Positions 27,933-35,370 of a stretch of 64,000 bases of DNA are shown one piece after another. Origin of the DNA: Escherichia virus TH41; the sequence record MT446412.1; one strand, written 5' to 3'. The notes under the pieces are model-generated. The model saw only the letters and a list, made by a program, of their open reading frames with translations, made no database searches and was not told where the DNA came from. The translations under genes and the position numbers were made by a program. How positions within the stretch are numbered: position 1 is the first letter of the stretch; each line of letters starts with the position of its first letter.

Positions 27933-29066
27933 ATGGCTTATACCGTAACTATTGCTCCTTTGGCGGCTACGGCCGTTATTGGAGCAACAACCAATTTCAC
28001 TGCGACCGGTTCCGGTGCTGCAGCTGAAGGTACCGAATCATTTGTCTGGACCGTTGATGGCGTTCCTCAATCTTCTGTGACTGCTGCAATGGATTATGTT
28101 GCTGTTGGTCCAGCAGGCAGTAAGACTATTAAAGTTGTTGCAACAACTACACCAGCGGACGGCGAACCAGAAACAGCTGAAGCCGAAACAACTTTAACTA
28201 TCCAGAATAAAACAATGCCTGCTATTACATTGACTTTAGACCCGGCCTCTGTTACTAAAGAAGTGGGGCAATCTCAAGTTGTTACTGCTAACGTGACAGG
28301 CGCTCCTTCTGGTGCAACAATCGCTTATGTTTGGAAACGAAATGCCGACGTAATCCCAGGACAAACTGGTAAAACAATCACCGTCACCGAATCAGCTGAA
28401 GCAAATTATACATTGAACTGTGAAGTTACTGTTTCAGCAGCAGATTATGATAATGGCACAGCAACTGAAGGTGCTGCTGTTATCTTTGTTAAGAAAACTA
28501 TGTCAGGTGTTTCTGTAACATTAACCCCAGAATCAATTAATGTTCCGGAAGACACCCCAGCCTCTTTTAAAGCGGATGTAGTCGGCGCACCGAGTGGAGC
28601 TACTTTTGCCTATTCTTGGAAGAAAGACGGTTCTCCTGTGGTTGGCAACACGGATACTCTAGCAATCGATACAAGCGCTGAAGGTTCACAGGTTATTGAA
28701 GTTTCTGTTGTGGTTTCGGCGACTGATTATAACCCGGCGACTGTCACAAAAACTGGTAATGTAACAGTCACGGCTAAAGTCGCACCAGTTCCAGATGGTG
28801 AACTACCTTACGTTCATCCGCTGCCAGTTCGTAATTCAGCTTATATCTGGTGTGGTTGGTGGGTTATGGACGAAATTCAGAAAATGACTCTTGCTGGGCA
28901 AGACTGGAAAACTGATGCTCCAGATAGCCCGTATTATTTGCACCGATATACCCTTCAAAAAATGATTACCGACTATCCAGAGGTTGATGTACAGGAATCT
29001 CGTAATGGTCGAATTATTCATCGCACCGCTTTAGAAACTGGTATTATATACGATTACGTTTATTAA
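27933..29066 (+). CDS. hoc: Hoc-like outer capsid decoration protein with Ig-like repeats
   Basis: 377 aa (T4 Hoc 376 aa); repeated Thr/Val-rich beta-type segments (VTANVTGAPSGATIAY / KADVVGAPSGATFAY). Confidence 0.7.
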   Translation: MAYTVTIAPLAATAVIGATTNFTATGSGAAAEGTESFVWTVDGVPQSSVTAAMDYVAVGPAGSKTIKVVATTTPADGEPETAEAETTLTIQNKTMPAITLTLDPASVTKEVGQSQVVTANVTGAPSGATIAYVWKRNADVIPGQTGKTITVTESAEANYTLNCEVTVSAADYDNGTATEGAAVIFVKKTMSGVSVTLTPESINVPEDTPASFKADVVGAPSGATFAYSWKKDGSPVVGNTDTLAIDTSAEGSQVIEVSVVVSATDYNPATVTKTGNVTVTAKVAPVPDGELPYVHPLPVRNSAYIWCGWWVMDEIQKMTLAGQDWKTDAPDSPYYLHRYTLQKMITDYPEVDVQESRNGRIIHRTALETGIIYDYVY

Positions 29067-29776: not shown

Positions 29777-30784
29777 ATGTTTAAGAAATACAACAGCCTT
29801 GAAAATCACTATAACAACAAGTTCATTGAAAAGATTCGCCTGCAAGGCTTCACCAGCGGTGAATGGGTAGCGCGTGAAAAGATTCATGGCACCAACTTTT
29901 CATTAATCATTGAACAAGACAATGTAACATGTGCGAAACGCACTGGACCTATCTTGCCTGCAGAAGATTTCTATGGTTATGAAATTGTATTAAAGAACTA
30001 TGCAGATTCTATTAAATCTGTGCAGAAACTTTTGCAGGATATTAATTACCAGGCATACCAGATTTATGGTGAGTTTGCCGGGGCAGGTATCCAGAAGAAT
30101 GTGGATTACGGTGATAAAGATTTTTATGTATTTGATATCCGCGTTACTAAAGAAGATGGTTTTGAATCCGTCCTGACTGATACCTTGATGGAAGCCTTCT
30201 GTATTATCCACAAGTTTAAGGTTGCTCCGCGGCTGGCTACTGGAAGTTTTGAAGACTTGATTAAGCTCCCTAATGACCTGGATTCTGTTGTCCCTGATTA
30301 CAATTTTACAGTGGATAACGCGGGTTTGACTACAGCAAATACCACTGATTTTGATGCAAAGGTGGAAGGTAAAGTATTCACTGCTGAAGGATTTGTATTA
30401 AAACCTGATGTTCCTGCATGGTTACCTAACGGTGAGCGCGTAGCGATTAAATGCAAGAACTCTAAATTCAGTGAAAAGAAAAAGTCCGATAAGCCTATTA
30501 AGGCTGCAGTGGTTCTGAGCCAAGATGATATGGATTTGCTGTGGAATTTCACTGATTATGTGACTGTTAACCGTATCAACAATGTTATCAGTAAAATTGG
30601 GGAAGTAACACCTAAGGATTTTGGAAAGGTAATGGGGTTAACAGTCCAAGATATTCTAGAAGAAGCGGGTCGTGAAGGTCTTGAATTATCCCTGACGGAA
30701 AATCCTGTTGAAGTTAAAAAGCAACTCATCGCAAATGTAAGAGAAACATTAAGACATGTTTGGATTGCATTAATTAGTGAATAA
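29777..30784 (+). CDS. rnlB: RNA ligase 2 (gp24.1)
   Basis: [20 protein letters not shown]...[11 protein letters not shown] (nucleotidyltransferase KxHG)...[21 protein letters not shown] closely matches recalled T4 Rnl2. Confidence 0.9.
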
Positions 30785-30786
30785 AA

Positions 30787-30812
30787 AAGGGCCGTAAGGC
30801 CCTTATTCTTTT
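30787..30812. terminator. Bidirectional terminator between rnlB and gene 24 paralog
   Basis: gggccGTAAggccc with A-run upstream and T-run downstream. Confidence 0.65.
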
Positions 30813-32086
30813 TCCAGTGGCGGAAGTTTAACACCAAGATAAGAACTCAATTGGCTTTGGTTGGCCATCTTATCCATATCAGCACCATCAATAATGCGAG
30901 CTTCTTTATCGTCTTTAGCAACGGTGTAAGGGTTCGCAGTCAATGCATAACGAGCTAATAACGCAACAGTAGGCTGCAAGCTTTCAGGGTCAACAATAAC
31001 CTTGAATTCCCCTACCGAGGTATCACCCTCATCATCAACTTCGCTAAGACCTTCCGTATAAGGCGCATAATACAAAGATGCGACCGTCTGACCTTCACCC
31101 ATATCAGCATTTACACCAACAATAACATAATCACATGGACTATTCATATCTGCATAAAGAGGCAAACCGTTCTTCAGAACGCCATAGGCTAATTCATCCT
31201 GGTCTTCCTTTTTCTCAACCCAGCCAGAAGCTGCTAAAATAGCTGCACAGCGAGAAGAAGCGACTGCATATGTACCAGCAAACGAAGTCTGACGTTGAAC
31301 TGCAGAATTCATTTCACACATATAATAATACAGGGTTCGCGCCCGGTCCTGGGCGTTATCATATTTCGGGTCAGTTAGATTCAATACACCTTTTTCAGAA
31401 ACACCTTGCACCTTGAAGCGAGAACTGACAGTAATAAGGGATTGCAGTACATCCTTATTAATTTCCTCTGCCATTTGAATGCCGAGAATATTATCAATGA
31501 AATCCGTTGCATCGAAACCGTTTGCTTCCAGGTCTTGAGCAAGCTCGACAGTTAAAGAAGTTTTCAGCTTTCTGGATTTAACTTCAGTCTGCCATTTATC
31601 AATACGAAAACCAGCTTCAGCAATTTCGGGATGACCTTTTTCAAATTTATCAGTGAAAGCTGCATCTGACATCATTCTTATATGGCCCGCCGCAATGGCT
31701 TCAGAAATAACTTCGCCCAAATCAGTTTCGAGAGTCCCGGCGAATGGTGATGCTTCCAAAACTTTGAACACAACACTTTCAAACTGGAACATATCGCCGA
31801 CTGCATAAGCTTCGTCTTTGTTCGTAAATTCTGGGATATTCTTACGCTCGAACATACCAATCTGACCTGCAAATGTTGCTCCACCAAGATAAGTCATTTT
31901 ATCATCTGGGTTCAGAACACGAACACCATACAGCGCAGCAACAGGCTGAGTAGTTTTCTGTTCAGCCACGAGTGCTTTAAAAATTCGTTTATTCGTGGCC
32001 TGAGTATAAGAAAGCAAATTAGGACGGGCGACCTGGTTGGCCGCCGTTAATGTTGATTCGTGAATTAGTGCGTTAATCTTTTGCAT
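30803..32086 (-). CDS. 24: Head vertex protein gp24, divergent second copy
   Basis: 427 aa; QPVAALYGV, KSRKLKT.LTVELAQDLEANGF, EINKDVLQSLITVS, ANPYTVAKDDKEARIID shared with the adjacent copy and T4 gp24; start abuts the upstream copy's stop (TAAATG). Confidence 0.8.
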   Translation of the reverse strand: MQKINALIHESTLTAANQVARPNLLSYTQATNKRIFKALVAEQKTTQPVAALYGVRVLNPDDKMTYLGGATFAGQIGMFERKNIPEFTNKDEAYAVGDMFQFESVVFKVLEASPFAGTLETDLGEVISEAIAAGHIRMMSDAAFTDKFEKGHPEIAEAGFRIDKWQTEVKSRKLKTSLTVELAQDLEANGFDATDFIDNILGIQMAEEINKDVLQSLITVSSRFKVQGVSEKGVLNLTDPKYDNAQDRARTLYYYMCEMNSAVQRQTSFAGTYAVASSRCAAILAASGWVEKKEDQDELAYGVLKNGLPLYADMNSPCDYVIVGVNADMGEGQTVASLYYAPYTEGLSEVDDEGDTSVGEFKVIVDPESLQPTVALLARYALTANPYTVAKDDKEARIIDGADMDKMANQSQLSSYLGVKLPPLEKE

Positions 32087-33367
32087 TTACGCCTCATAAA
32101 TGATTGGCGGAAGTTTAACACCGAGCAGATAAGACATATTGCTCTGACCGGCCATTAAATCCATATTGGTTGCATCGATAATACGAGCTTCTTTATCGTC
32201 TTTAGCAACGGTGTACGGGTTAGCTGAAAGTGCATAACGAACCATCAGAGAGATAGCCGGTTGCAAACTGTCAGGGTCCACAATGACCTTAAACGCGCCC
32301 ACGTGTTCTTCATCATCTAAGTCCAGGCCTTCGGTATAAGGAGCATAGAAGATTGAGCCTACGACTTCATTTCCGCCATAATTTTCTTTAACGCCAACGG
32401 TTACATAATCTAATGGACTGTTAACATCACAGAATACAGGAAGACCATTAATCAAATAACCGTATGCTGTTTCAGGAAGCCATTGTTCATCTTCAGGTTT
32501 ATGCTTCAGCCAACCAGAACCGGCCAGCATAGCAGCAACACGGCTAGAGGCAACAACAAAGGTACCGGAATAAGATGTAGTTTTCTGAATCTCGGAGTTC
32601 ATTTCGCAAACCAGTTCGTACAGTTTACGTGCGCCTTCTGGAGCTGCATCATATGTTAAATCGATGACGCCATTGTCAGAAACCCCAGTTACTTTATAAC
32701 GCTTGGAAACGGTAATAAGAGACTGAAGAACATCTTTGTTAATTTCATCTGCCATAATAGTGGCAAGCAAGTCTTCCAGGAAAGCAGGAGCATTAAACCC
32801 ATTTGCTTCCATATCCTGAGCAAGCTCAACAGTTAATGCAGTTTTCAATTTACGTGTTTTAACCGGAGCATTCCATTTGTTAACCTGGAATACGGCATTG
32901 CTAATTTCAACATCACCGGCTTCAAATTTCTCGGTGTGCGCCGCATCAGGAACCAAACGAATGGTTAATGCAATAAGACCTTCTTGCAGAACATCGGATA
33001 ATACAGTTTCGGTAGTCGATGCAAACGGATTATCAACCAGAGCTTTATAAACGGTATTCTGAAATTTAATGTATCCGCCTTTAGCTACGGCCTGAGTTGG
33101 AGTTGTAAATTCCGGAATTGTTTCACGGTCTTTTGAACCAACTTCACCACCGTAAACGGCACCGGTTTGGAAACTGAATTCATTATCAGGAGTAAGATAT
33201 TTAACACCGTACAGAGCCGCAACTGGCTGGTTCGTACGTTGTTCAGCGATAATATCGCGGTAAATCAATTTGGTTGTAGCGCGGGTCAAAGCAACAAGAT
33301 TCGGGCGGCCCAATGAGTTGCTGGTAGTAGTAGTTGACTCGCGCAGTAATTTGTTAATCTTTGCCAT
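32087..33367 (-). CDS. 24: Head vertex protein gp24, T4-like copy
   Basis: 426 aa; N-terminus MAKINKLLRESTTTTSNSLGRPNLVALTRATTKLIY matches recalled T4 gp24 closely. Confidence 0.85.
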   Translation of the reverse strand: MAKINKLLRESTTTTSNSLGRPNLVALTRATTKLIYRDIIAEQRTNQPVAALYGVKYLTPDNEFSFQTGAVYGGEVGSKDRETIPEFTTPTQAVAKGGYIKFQNTVYKALVDNPFASTTETVLSDVLQEGLIALTIRLVPDAAHTEKFEAGDVEISNAVFQVNKWNAPVKTRKLKTALTVELAQDMEANGFNAPAFLEDLLATIMADEINKDVLQSLITVSKRYKVTGVSDNGVIDLTYDAAPEGARKLYELVCEMNSEIQKTTSYSGTFVVASSRVAAMLAGSGWLKHKPEDEQWLPETAYGYLINGLPVFCDVNSPLDYVTVGVKENYGGNEVVGSIFYAPYTEGLDLDDEEHVGAFKVIVDPDSLQPAISLMVRYALSANPYTVAKDDKEARIIDATNMDLMAGQSNMSYLLGVKLPPIIYEA

Positions 33368-33393
33368 TTGCGCTTTCCTTTTGTGATATACTT

Positions 33394-33401
33394 TATTTAT
33401 A
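33394..33401 (-). promoter_or_regulatory. Late promoter (TATAAATA on minus strand) for gene 24
   Basis: Reverse complement of tatttata, about 27 nt upstream of ATG 33367. Confidence 0.5.
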
Positions 33402-33478: not shown

Positions 33479-33760
33479 ATGAACAAAGCAACTTTCCTTC
33501 TGAACACCTTTAAAAATCTGGAAATTGAAGTTATTGCATTGGTCAACAAATACCCGAATGGTGTTAATGGTAATGCTCTGAACAAACTAGTTAAAAAATA
33601 TGAAAACTTAGCATATGACACTGATTTCTGGTGGAATGGTAATTATTCTACTCACACTAAAGATAAAAATGGTAACTGGTTGAAACTTCAAGAAAACAAT
33701 GTTAACTTCAGAGACCTCATCAAGCGCCGGGTAGAAGTTCATTTAAATGGTATGGTATGA
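33479..33760 (+). CDS. Hypothetical protein inserted between genes 24 and 23
   Basis: 93 aa ORF on the strand opposite the head genes, flanked by an early promoter and a terminator. Confidence 0.45.
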   Translation: MNKATFLLNTFKNLEIEVIALVNKYPNGVNGNALNKLVKKYENLAYDTDFWWNGNYSTHTKDKNGNWLKLQENNVNFRDLIKRRVEVHLNGMV

Positions 33761-33810: not shown

Positions 33811-35370
33811 TTAAATTCCTTTAACATATACGCGGCGGAAGTAACCGTTCAAGCCGAGGCTATTAACGATGTCCGGCATACCATTCTGAATGCGCTTGGT
33901 CGGAGCCTGAGCAGCAGGGTCAGCAAACGGGTTGATACCGATACCGTAACGGGTTTTGAAGCCCATAACCGGCTGGAAGTTTTTCGGGTCAGAGCCACGC
34001 AGCGGGGTCAGTGCAACATATGGTGCGTAGTAGATACCAGCATCCATTTCGTTAGCGCCTTTGTAACCGATGGTGAAGTAATCTGCACGAGCATACTGGT
34101 CGATATAGACACGGTATTTGCCACCCAGAACACCAGCGAACACAGCTTTAGTGGTGTCAACGTTGAAACCTTTACCCAGACCCTGAGCAGCATAACTTAC
34201 AGAAGTATCAACAGCAGCCAGTACGTTAACTACGTTACGGGAAGCGATGATGAAGTTACCTGCACCACGACCGGTCTGACGAGCGATTTCAGCGGCTTCT
34301 TTATCAATCTGGAACAGTAAAGCTTTGAAGCTTTCACCAGCCCAACGAGCACCACGGATATCAATCGGGTCCTGGAAGTCAAACACACCAGCTTTAGCGC
34401 CAACGGTGTTGGTCATACCAGATTTACCAACCTGTGCGGAGTAGTTAATCCAATCGATAACTTCGCGGTTGATTTCCAGCATAATTTCGGTAGCCAGAAT
34501 ACCACTCAATTCGGCATCAGCATCCATACCGTGAACAGCGCGCAGGTCCTGTGCCAGTTCGATGGAGTAGCTTGCTTTCAGCTGACGGGATTTAGCTTCG
34601 ATAACTTGTTTGTCGATGCGGAAGCCCATTTCGTTCCACGGGTTATCAGAGGAACCGTTAAAACCTTCTTGCAGTTCGGCGATGGAGGTAGCCATACCTT
34701 CAGCCAGTTCAGCCAGCTGACCAGCTTCAACCAGAGCGGTAACAGCAGCGTCAAGTTTAGCAGCGTCAGTAGCAGCAGCATCAACAGTTACAGCTTCAAC
34801 AGCCTGGAAGTGTGCAGAACCAGTTGCTTCGAAGAAGTGAGAATAAATTTTACCAACTTCCAGAACTTTGCTTGCAGCCAGTGCTTCAAAAGTCTGAGCA
34901 GCGCCCTGACCAGAGAACATAGCGTTCGGAGCATACATCGGGTGGAAAGCTTCTTTAGCACCAGCAGCGACAGGGTCTTTACCGTAAACTGCACGCAGGG
35001 CAAATACCTGGCCAGTCGGGTTGTTCAGAGGCTGTACGCCACAAATATCAAACGCAATCAGATGCGGGATAGCACGACGAACCATACCCATAACTGCCGG
35101 CCCAATCTGAGTTACTGCACCAGAGGTCTGGCCAGCGGCGATATTGGTAGCATCATAACCATGGTCACCACCGATTTCAGCTTCGGTCAGGAAAGAACCA
35201 AATGCTTCGGAGATTTTTTCATCACGGTATTCAGGAGCGGTCAGGATATCTTGTTCCTGGTTTTCAAAGATTTTAGCGATGATAGCTTGTTTAGAAGCAC
35301 CAACGATTTCAGGAAGAGCTTCGTTTTCCAGCAGAGCGGACCATTTTTGAACTAATGCATTCTTTTTCAT
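33811..35370 (-). CDS. 23: Major capsid protein gp23
   Basis: 519 aa (T4 gp23 521 aa); N-terminal propeptide-like region and strong overall resemblance to recalled gp23. Confidence 0.9.
   Translation of the reverse strand: MKKNALVQKWSALLENEALPEIVGASKQAIIAKIFENQEQDILTAPEYRDEKISEAFGSFLTEAEIGGDHGYDATNIAAGQTSGAVTQIGPAVMGMVRRAIPHLIAFDICGVQPLNNPTGQVFALRAVYGKDPVAAGAKEAFHPMYAPNAMFSGQGAAQTFEALAASKVLEVGKIYSHFFEATGSAHFQAVEAVTVDAAATDAAKLDAAVTALVEAGQLAELAEGMATSIAELQEGFNGSSDNPWNEMGFRIDKQVIEAKSRQLKASYSIELAQDLRAVHGMDADAELSGILATEIMLEINREVIDWINYSAQVGKSGMTNTVGAKAGVFDFQDPIDIRGARWAGESFKALLFQIDKEAAEIARQTGRGAGNFIIASRNVVNVLAAVDTSVSYAAQGLGKGFNVDTTKAVFAGVLGGKYRVYIDQYARADYFTIGYKGANEMDAGIYYAPYVALTPLRGSDPKNFQPVMGFKTRYGIGINPFADPAAQAPTKRIQNGMPDIVNSLGLNGYFRRVYVKGI

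What the first reader, a model, noticed from the sequence alone, without database searches (positions are those of the whole stretch)
30803..33367. Tandem pair of gene 24 head-vertex paralogs
Two adjacent minus-strand ORFs (427 and 426 aa) are both clear gp24 homologues. The upstream copy (32087-33367) is close to T4 gp24, while the downstream copy (30803-32086) is clearly more divergent but keeps the conserved blocks. The second copy starts immediately after the stop of the first (TAAATG), so both would be co-expressed from the late promoter at 33394. T4 itself has one gene 24; a second vertex paralog could mean specialised vertices or a capsid variant.
Basis: partly seen in the sequence, partly recalled or inferred. 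Interest (0 to 1): 0.6.

Follow-up and report, generated by a model that had tools for sequence, protein, structure and literature searches.

The report
Known tandem gp24 vertex-protein gene pair
This T4-like phage carries two adjacent, intact, co-transcribed genes for the capsid corner (vertex) protein; the pair is real, but it is already annotated in over 100 phage genomes from five genera, and what the second copy does is still unknown.

Summary
Two intact minus-strand ORFs (32087-33367, 426 aa; 30803-32086, 427 aa) abut as TAAATG. They are 56% identical and both match solved T4 gp24 over their full length.

The window comes from a Gaprivervirus (97% DNA identity to Escherichia phage P896).
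- VR20 lists "capsid vertex protein I/II", VR7 "24(1)/24(2)" and JS98 "24a/24b".
- Orthologues of the second copy occur in 113 phage records.
- Representatives of Gaprivervirus, Dhakavirus, Gelderlandvirus, Kanagawavirus and Marfavirus all carry the pair.

What I add:
- It is not a recent duplication. Copy I is closer to T4's single gp24 (69%) than to its neighbour, and copy II forms its own deep clade.
- The two copies evolve at equal rates.
- Both are under strong purifying selection (dN/dS 0.005-0.15).
- In every locus examined, copy II sits directly behind copy I.
- The unit has one late promoter, a ribosome-binding site (SD) inside the end of copy I, and one terminator.
- Fixed I/II differences cluster in the N-terminal segment and I-domain linker, which form pentamer contacts in T4.

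The most likely reading is two co-expressed structural vertex proteins. How they share the eleven vertices cannot be tested here. Existence: already known. Function: open.

The parts
33394..33401 (-). T4-type late promoter motif TATAAATA, 26 nt upstream of the 24-I start codon
   Evidence: it is the only TATAAATA between 30803 and 33401; the same motif sits at the same distance upstream of 24-I in VR20, JS98, S16, Q7622, Kosakonia 305, Marfa and F48, and upstream of T4 gene 24. This is a motif match only; no transcript was observed.
33373..33380 (-). Ribosome-binding site AAGGAAAG of gene 24-I
   Evidence: Read from the sequence. AGGAAAGCGCA(A)ATG is conserved in all eight doublet phages examined.
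32087..33367 (-). Gene 24-I (426 aa), the orthologue of T4 gp24 (capsid vertex protein I), with a Leu-Arg-Glu motif at residues 8-10
   Evidence: It is 69% identical to T4 gp24. It lies in a 93%-bootstrap clade with the T4, Mosigvirus, Karamvirus and PEi20 gp24. dN/dS is 0.01-0.15.
32092..32095 (-). GAGG ribosome-binding site for 24-II, inside the last codons of 24-I, 5 nt before the ATG
   Evidence: Read from the sequence. GAGG (GTGAG in Marfavirus) is conserved at the junction in all eight phages. The junction ranges from a 4-nt overlap to a 1-nt spacer.
30803..32086 (-). Gene 24-II (427 aa), an anciently diverged gp24 paralogue (capsid vertex protein II), with an Ile-His-Glu motif at residues 8-10
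   Evidence: It is 56% identical to both 24-I and T4 gp24. It belongs to its own clade with 97% bootstrap. dN/dS is 0.005-0.07. Orthologues occur in 113 phage records.
30787..30804 (.). GC-rich hairpin AAGGGCCttacGGCCCTT followed by T-runs on both strands: a two-way intrinsic terminator shared by 24-II (-) and the convergent rnlB (+)
   Evidence: One search reports it on both strands. It overlaps the 24-II stop codon (30805-30803). Marfa has an annotated terminator at the same place.

Best explanation
The region is the two-gene vertex-protein unit, 24-I and 24-II, that is a standard annotated feature of Gaprivervirus and related T4-like genera. 24-I is the orthologue of T4 gp24. 24-II is a second full-length gp24-fold protein whose lineage separated from 24-I before 24-I separated from the T4 gp24. 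It arose either by a very old duplication followed by losses in T4-like lineages, or by acquisition from a deep-branching T4-like phage.

Both genes are transcribed late as one bicistronic message, from the TATAAATA motif at 33394-33401 to the hairpin at 30787-30804. 24-II is translated from a Shine-Dalgarno site embedded in the end of 24-I, so the two are made together. Both keep the L/I-x-E motif at residues 8-10 where T4 prohead protease trims gp24. Both are therefore most likely assembled into proheads as pentameric vertex subunits.

The fixed differences between the paralogues fall on both sides of an intra-pentamer contact known from T4: residues 25-27 against I-domain linker residues 65-68. 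They also fall in the N-terminal arm that reaches onto neighbouring gp23 hexamers. From this I infer that the two proteins preferentially form separate homopentamers with somewhat different contacts to their surroundings, so that the eleven non-portal vertices are built from two kinds of pentamer.

Shown here: gene integrity, homology, conservation, operon architecture and the age of the split. Inferred: co-expression, cleavage, virion incorporation and homopentamer formation.
For: Integrity and homology.

Already annotated and widespread: 77 records hold at least 80% of the 2.8-kb region; 113 records with a 24-II orthologue at 78% identity or more; annotation in five genera.

Always paired: all 16 IMG/VR loci with a 24-II orthologue have 24-I directly upstream. 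In the phage collection there are 1534 places in 1416 records, consistent with about 113 doublets.

Old split:
- The NJ tree puts 24-II in its own clade (97%) and puts 24-I, PEi20, T4, Mosigvirus and Karamvirus together to the exclusion of 24-II (93%).
- Quartet site counts are 8: 1: 2 in favour of (24-I, T4 group).
- Tajima relative-rate tests show equal rates for 24-I and 24-II against three outgroups: 51 v 63, 48 v 40 and 42 v 40 unique changes.
- Synonymous sites between the paralogues are saturated (pS 0.71), with no recent conversion tract.

Selection: dN/dS is 0.005-0.15 for both copies, comparable to or lower than gene 23 in the same genome pairs.

Operon: there is a single TATAAATA and none inside the genes in all eight phages; the junction SD is conserved; the fraction of gene-23-preferred codons is similar (0.45-0.50 for 24-I, 0.45 for 24-II).

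Interface differences: 46 fixed I/II differences, 14 of them in residues 8-68, including 25, 26, 27, 65, 66 and 68. In the T4 expanded head, gp24 residues 26-29 pair with an I-domain linker of the adjacent gp24 subunit, and residues 11-20 extend onto a neighbouring hexamer (PMC9546572).
Against: No proteomic, genetic or structural data on either product could be found. None of the papers I could search or open discusses the doublet's function, and the JS98 genome paper is not held.

PEi20 (Kanagawavirus), Karamvirus and T4 manage with a 24-I-type gene alone, so 24-II is dispensable over evolutionary time.

The homopentamer inference rests on about six residues and on the T4 structure, not on a model of these proteins.

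Deep nodes of the NJ tree are weakly supported (29-61%), so the exact origin of 24-II is unresolved.
Confidence: 0.65

Rival explanations
1. Both proteins are vertex subunits but mix freely, as heteropentamers or as a random choice of pentamer at each vertex. On this reading the second copy adds robustness or tunes capsid stability rather than marking particular vertices.
For: Tight translational coupling predicts similar amounts of both proteins. The core P and A domains are well conserved between the paralogues: 64-68% identity in residues 161-260 and 341-427. The JD18 single gene 24 appears to be a working I/II/I mosaic, so segments of the two types can function in one protein.
Against: Fixed differences sit on both partners of an intra-pentamer contact, residues 25-27 and 65-68 (PMC9546572). 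The two lineages have stayed distinct, with no detectable gene conversion despite being adjacent: pS is 0.71 overall and 0.49 or higher in every 30-codon window.
Confidence: 0.25
2. 24-II is a recent local duplicate of 24-I that diverged quickly. It would be either neofunctionalising or on its way to decay, which is the simple 'tandem duplication' reading.
For: Tandem position, same length, same strand and same fold.
Against: 24-I is closer to T4 gp24 (69%) than to 24-II (56%), and 24-II is equally distant from 24-I and T4. Relative-rate tests show no acceleration in 24-II. 24-II orthologues are 78-100% identical across five genera, with dN/dS of 0.07 or less. No copy examined carries a stop or frameshift.
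Confidence: 0.04
3. 24-II is not a vertex subunit of the finished capsid. It could act in assembly, for example as a transient prohead component or a nucleator of one special vertex. It could also be a decoy or variant that evades a host defence which senses capsid proteins.
For: Single-copy relatives show that one gp24 suffices to build a head. The 24-II N-terminal arm carries lineage-specific changes (8, 25-27, 32, 34, 36, 56, 57, 66, 68) at positions where all single-copy phages share the 24-I state.
Against: It retains the full length, the I domain, the C-terminus and the protease-site motif. Its constraint is as strong as that on 24-I and gene 23. No defence-related signal was examined or seen.
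Confidence: 0.06

Closest known systems
T4 gp24 head vertex protein (PDB 1yue; in situ 7vs5, 5vf3, 8gmo)
   Same: There is a full-length sequence match for both copies: 648 and 498 bits. The genes lie downstream of gene 23 and upstream of the convergent rnlB. They have a TATAAATA late promoter motif and an L/I-x-E motif at residues 8-10, where T4 gp24 loses 10 residues (PMC9546572).
   Different: T4 has one gene 24; this phage has two. 24-II differs from T4 gp24 at 44% of positions. It carries lineage-specific residues in the N-terminal arm and I-domain linker.
Annotated gp24 doublets of Dhakavirus JS98 (24a/24b), Gaprivervirus VR7 (24(1)/24(2)) and VR20 (capsid vertex protein I/II), Gelderlandvirus S16 (gp108/gp109), Kanagawavirus Q7622 and Kosakonia 305, and Marfavirus Marfa and F48
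   Same: They share the gene order, tight junction, promoter and terminator. 24-I is 73-99% identical and 24-II 78-100% identical to the window copies.
   Different: Nothing of substance. The window is another member of this set. Its 24-II protein is 100% identical to those of phages TH54 and P896.
The gp23/gp24 pair itself: a major capsid protein and the vertex protein derived from it by duplication
   Same: It follows the same principle of an HK97-fold capsid gene duplicating and the copy specialising for a geometric position (stated in PMC9958956, and PMC10580926).
   Different: The gp23-gp24 split is far older (about 50 bits, roughly 21% identity) and its functional division between hexamers and pentamers is established. 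For 24-I and 24-II no division of labour has been shown.

Membership tests
gp24 capsid vertex protein family (T4-like phages; Pfam PF07068 Gp23 superfamily) | Full-length sequence homology to T4 gp24, clearly stronger than to gp23 | tested here: met
   24-I: 648 bits to 1yue against 48 bits to T4 gp23. 24-II: 498 bits against 50 bits. Both hit PF07068 at about 1e-97 and phrog_138.
gp24 capsid vertex protein family | Position in the head-gene cluster directly downstream of gene 23, same strand | tested here: met
   Gene 23 is at 33811-35370 (-), 24-I at 32087-33367 (-) and 24-II at 30803-32086 (-). The order is the same as in T4.
gp24 capsid vertex protein family | Late expression from a T4-type late promoter | tested here: inconclusive
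   The TATAAATA motif is present at 33394-33401 and conserved in eight phages and T4. This is a motif match only; there are no transcript data.
gp24 capsid vertex protein family | N-terminal 10-residue propeptide removed by the gp21 prohead protease | tested here: inconclusive
   L-R-E (24-I) and I-x-E (24-II) at residues 8-10 are conserved in all orthologues. T4 cleavage of 10 residues is reported in PMC9546572. The L/I-x-E consensus comes from my own knowledge. Cleavage itself cannot be tested here.
gp24 capsid vertex protein family | [quoted passage not shown] | not testable with these tools
   This needs virion proteomics or cryo-EM. None of the papers I could search or open reports it for either paralogue.
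Annotated 24-I/24-II doublet of Gaprivervirus, Dhakavirus, Gelderlandvirus, Kanagawavirus and Marfavirus | Two tandem gp24 genes, the upstream of I type and the downstream of II type, with junction between -4 and +1 nt | tested here: met
   The window copies fall inside the 24-I clade (97%) and the 24-II clade (97%). The TAAATG junction is identical to VR20. DNA identity is 95-97% to VR20 and P896.

The most novel reading that the evidence does not exclude
The two paralogues may occupy geometrically different vertex classes of the prolate head. For example, one could fill the five vertices of one cap ring, or the single apical vertex, and the other the remaining vertices. The capsid would then use three HK97-fold proteins for three kinds of lattice position. 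To my knowledge that would be the first tailed-phage capsid shown to have position-specific pentamers, and it would give a handle on how prolate heads define their ends.
Probability: 0.15. Interest if true: 0.7.

Novelty: already known. Interest (0 to 1): 0.25.

Why it matters
As a gene arrangement this adds nothing new. The pair has been in GenBank annotation since JS98 (EF469154) and is present in 113 phage records.

What remains open is why about a hundred T4-like phages in five genera keep two vertex proteins under strong constraint when T4 needs one. T4 can even do without gp24 altogether if it carries bypass mutations in gene 23. In T4, gp24 contributes to capsid resistance to acid, heat and proteases (PMC10580926). 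A second vertex subunit could therefore matter for the stability of phages considered for therapy, since many Dhakavirus, Gaprivervirus and Gelderlandvirus isolates are therapy or detection candidates.

The analysis here narrows the question. The pair is old, has co-diverged as a unit, and differs most at the N-terminal arm and the I-domain linker.

Tried and rejected
- **Literature.** None of the papers I could search or open discusses the function or virion presence of the two gp24 copies. One search was wasted because the term '24a' matched chemistry papers. The JS98 genome paper (PMC2168658) is not held. The F48 and Kosakonia phage papers do not mention vertex proteins. The Jiaodavirus virion proteome (PMC13119998) concerns a single-copy genus.
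- **NCBIfam.** There is no model for either protein.
- **Bootstrapping.** I replaced it with my own Kimura-corrected NJ tree with 300 replicates.
- **Structure prediction.** Not run. The match to solved T4 gp24 is already full-length at E 1e-148.
- **Recent gene conversion between the copies.** Rejected: pS is 0.49 or higher in every 30-codon window.
- **Pseudogene or decay.** Rejected.
- **An internal late promoter for 24-II.** Rejected: no TATAAATA inside either gene in eight phages.
- **A 24-II-only lineage as possible donor.** Not found among sequenced phages or IMG/VR loci.
Full report
**1. Observation**

The upstream ORF is 32087..33367 on the minus strand, 426 aa. The downstream ORF is 30803..32086 on the minus strand, 427 aa. 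The sequence reads ...gag gcg TAA ATG caa..., so the stop of the first gene (32089-32087) directly abuts the start of the second (32086-32084). Neither ORF has an internal stop.

- The two proteins are 56% identical over their whole length (241/428, E 2e-174).
- Both match Pfam PF07068 (Gp23 family) at about 1e-97 and PHROG 138.
- Against the PDB, the upstream protein matches T4 gp24 (1yue) over residues 1-424 with 648 bits. The downstream protein matches over 1-424 with 498 bits.
- T4 gp23 scores only about 50 bits with either.
- In a multiple alignment, identity to T4 gp24 is 69.0% for the upstream copy and 56.3% for the downstream copy.

I call the upstream gene 24-I and the downstream gene 24-II, following the VR20 annotation.

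**2. Source, and whether this is new**

The 2.8-kb region is 97% identical to Escherichia phages P896 and PSD2001 and 95% identical to vB_EcoM_VR20. VR20 is classified in Tevenvirinae, genus Gaprivervirus.

The doublet is already annotated in the public records:
- VR20, VR25 and VR26: "capsid vertex protein I" and "II".
- VR7: "24(1)" and "24(2)".
- JS98 and JS10: "24a" and "24b".

Seventy-seven phage records hold at least 80% of the region at the DNA level. A tblastn search with 24-II finds orthologues at 78% identity or more in 113 records.

I fetched representatives, and each has the two genes annotated side by side:
- JS98 (Dhakavirus)
- S16 (Gelderlandvirus)
- Q7622 and Kosakonia phage 305 (Kanagawavirus)
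- Marfa and F48 (Marfavirus)

**3. Anatomy of the unit**

- A single T4-type late promoter motif, TATAAATA, lies at 33394-33401 (-), 26 nt upstream of the 24-I start.
- There is no other copy anywhere in or between the two genes.
- The motif is enriched in the window as a whole: 19 matches against 4.85 expected.
- GAGG at 32095-32092, inside the last codons of 24-I, sits 5 nt before the 24-II ATG.
- A GC-rich hairpin at 30787-30804, overlapping the 24-II stop codon, is followed by T-runs on both strands. It also serves the convergent rnlB gene.

The same layout recurs in all eight doublet phages I examined:
- one TATAAATA at the same distance upstream of 24-I;
- none inside either gene;
- a GAGG or GTGAG before the 24-II start;
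- a junction between a 4-nt overlap and a 1-nt spacer.

The fraction of codons matching the gene 23 preference is similar for the two genes: 0.45-0.50 for 24-I and 0.45 for 24-II. The simplest reading is one late bicistronic mRNA with coupled translation. That is an inference from motifs, not from transcripts.

**4. Age and origin of the pair**

A neighbour-joining tree of 25 gp24 sequences was rooted with gp23 and bootstrapped 300 times.
- 24-II from all five genera forms one clade (97%).
- 24-I from the same genomes forms another clade (97%).
- 24-I groups with the single gp24 of PEi20, T4, Mosigvirus APCEc01 and Karamvirus Entb_43, to the exclusion of 24-II (93%).

Counting sites that are conserved within groups gives 8 sites for (24-I + T4 group | 24-II + outgroups), against 1 and 2 for the two alternative arrangements.

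This placement is not a long-branch artefact.
- Tajima relative-rate tests show equal numbers of unique changes in 24-I and 24-II against Proteus phage phiP4-3 (51 v 63), ECD7 (48 v 40) and phiEap-3 (42 v 40).
- Orthologous divergences between the same genome pairs are similar for the two genes: window to S16 is 84.0% and 84.3%, and window to Q7622 is 81.9% and 81.9%.
- With Acinetobacter phage Octan as reference, 24-II has significantly more unique changes than T4 gp24 (62 v 33, p = 0.003). This suggests the 24-II lineage is at least as deep as the Tevenvirinae/Twarogvirinae gp24 split.
- Synonymous sites between the two window genes are saturated (pS 0.71), and no 30-codon window falls below 0.49. 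There is thus no sign of recent gene conversion.

On a gene 23 tree, the doublet-bearing genera are interspersed with single-copy lineages (PEi20, JD18, Entb_43). The history therefore includes several losses, lateral transfer of the cassette, or both. I cannot decide between an ancient duplication with multiple losses and one acquisition of a deep-branching gp24 placed next to the resident gene. Deep nodes have only 29-61% support.

**5. Constraint**

Nei-Gojobori estimates for eight genome pairs give dN/dS of 0.01-0.15 for 24-I and 0.005-0.07 for 24-II. These values are similar to or lower than those for gene 23 in the same pairs. All sixteen copies examined are intact. All 16 IMG/VR loci with a 24-II orthologue have 24-I directly upstream, and no 24-II singleton was found. 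Both genes are therefore functional, and they are kept together.

**6. Where the paralogues differ**

Across six genomes there are 46 positions that are invariant within 24-I and invariant within 24-II but differ between them. They are concentrated in two regions:
- residues 8-68, with 14 positions;
- residues 261-340, with 14 positions.

At most N-terminal positions (8, 25, 26, 27, 32, 34, 36, 56, 57, 66, 68) all single-copy phages share the 24-I state. At these positions the 24-II state therefore sets that lineage apart.

The region of lowest identity between the two window proteins (32-43%) is residues 60-142. By the T4 description this corresponds to I-domain linker 1 and the I domain. It is the most variable part of 24-I (21% invariant) and is more conserved in 24-II (44% invariant).

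The T4 head structures (PMC9546572) report that, in the expanded capsid:
- gp24 residues 26-29 form a parallel beta interaction with an I-domain linker of the adjacent gp24 subunit;
- residues 11-20 extend onto the outer surface of a neighbouring gp23 hexamer;

Fixed differences at 25-27 and at 65, 66 and 68 therefore fall on both partners of an intra-pentamer contact. I take this as weak evidence that each paralogue prefers its own kind, forming homopentamers.

Both paralogues keep a Leu/Ile-x-Glu motif at residues 8-10 (LRE in 24-I, IHE in 24-II). This is where T4 gp24 loses its first ten residues (PMC9546572). That L/I-x-E is the gp21 protease consensus is from my own knowledge.

**7. Best explanation and rivals**

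The most likely explanation is that both products are late, co-expressed, protease-processed structural subunits of the non-portal vertices. 24-I is the T4 gp24 orthologue, and 24-II is an old second vertex subunit with an altered N-terminal arm and linker.
- I put 0.65 on both being structural vertex proteins.
- Within that, I lean modestly towards separate homopentamers over mixed pentamers.
- I put about 0.15 on the stronger idea that the two kinds of pentamer sit at defined vertex classes of the prolate head.
- A recent duplication with fast divergence, or decay, is contradicted by sections 4 and 5.
- A non-vertex role for 24-II, such as an assembly factor or decoy, cannot be excluded. It is disfavoured by the full-length conservation and the strength of constraint.
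- PEi20, Karamvirus and T4 live with a 24-I-type gene only. This shows that 24-II is not indispensable in the long run.

**8. Comparison with what is known**

Both proteins meet the testable membership criteria of the gp24 vertex family: homology, synteny, promoter motif and cleavage motif. Pentamer formation and virion location cannot be tested here.

The arrangement is a member of the already annotated 24-I/24-II doublet of five genera, so the novelty class is "already known". T4 work shows that gp24 contributes to capsid stability at low pH, at 37 °C and against proteases (PMC10580926). It also proposes that gp24 itself arose from gene 23 by duplication (PMC9958956). None of the papers I could search or open says what a second gp24 does. 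The JS98, VR7 and S16 genome papers are not in the library.

**9. Verdict**

It is, however, a standard annotated feature of the source genus and its relatives. The function of the second copy is an open but modest question. Interest: 0.25.

Noticed in passing
L009 3601-4881 (Klebsiella phage JD18, Jiaodavirus): The single gene 24 of JD18 looks like a mosaic of the two paralogue types. I compared it at sites where the 24-I/T4 consensus differs from the 24-II consensus. Residues ~108-286 match 24-II at 17 of 21 such sites, and the flanks match 24-I/T4 at 29 of 39. A two-breakpoint max-chi-square was reached in 1 of 500 permutations. In the middle segment JD18 shares 7 derived states with 24-II and none with 24-I. 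This suggests past recombination between the two lineages, perhaps collapse of a doublet into one hybrid gene.
   Followed up: partly
L012 3601-4881 (Edwardsiella phage PEi20) versus L004 and L005: Within the genus Kanagawavirus, PEi20 has only a 24-I-type gene (41 of 46 fixed sites match 24-I). Q7622 and Kosakonia phage 305 carry the doublet. The second copy has therefore been lost or gained within one genus.
   Followed up: partly
window 33479-33760 (+): A 93-aa ORF lies on the opposite strand, between gene 23 and 24-I. VR20 annotates it as hypothetical ('similar to VR7 gp190'). T4 has the segD homing endonuclease at this position, and JS98 and APCEc01 have other small ORFs there, so this is a variable slot.
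   Followed up: no
window 30787-30804: The hairpin after 24-II overlaps its stop codon and is flanked by T-runs on both strands. It would therefore act as a shared two-way terminator for the convergent rnlB (29777-30784, +) and the gp24 pair.
   Followed up: partly
window, whole: TATAAATA occurs 19 times against 4.85 expected, 15 of them on the minus strand. This is consistent with a run of late promoters across the head and tail gene cluster.
   Followed up: no
window 27933-29066 (+): The Hoc-like head decoration gene (377 aa) contains visibly repeated Ig-like segments (e.g. ...VTANVTGAPSGATIAYVWK... and ...FKADVVGAPSGATFAYSWKK...). Hoc length varies widely among the relatives I fetched: 849 nt in JS98, 1464 nt in Q7622 and 1131 nt in T4.
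   Followed up: no
window 32087-33367 residues 60-160 versus 30803-32086 residues 60-160: The linker and I-domain part of 24-I evolves about three to four times faster at non-synonymous sites than the rest of the protein. For the window-JS98 pair, pN is 0.125 there against 0.030 (residues 1-59) and 0.038 (residues 161-end). The same region of 24-II does not show this (0.029 against 0.022 and 0.034). The surface-exposed I domain of the T4-type copy seems freer to vary than that of the second copy.
   Followed up: partly
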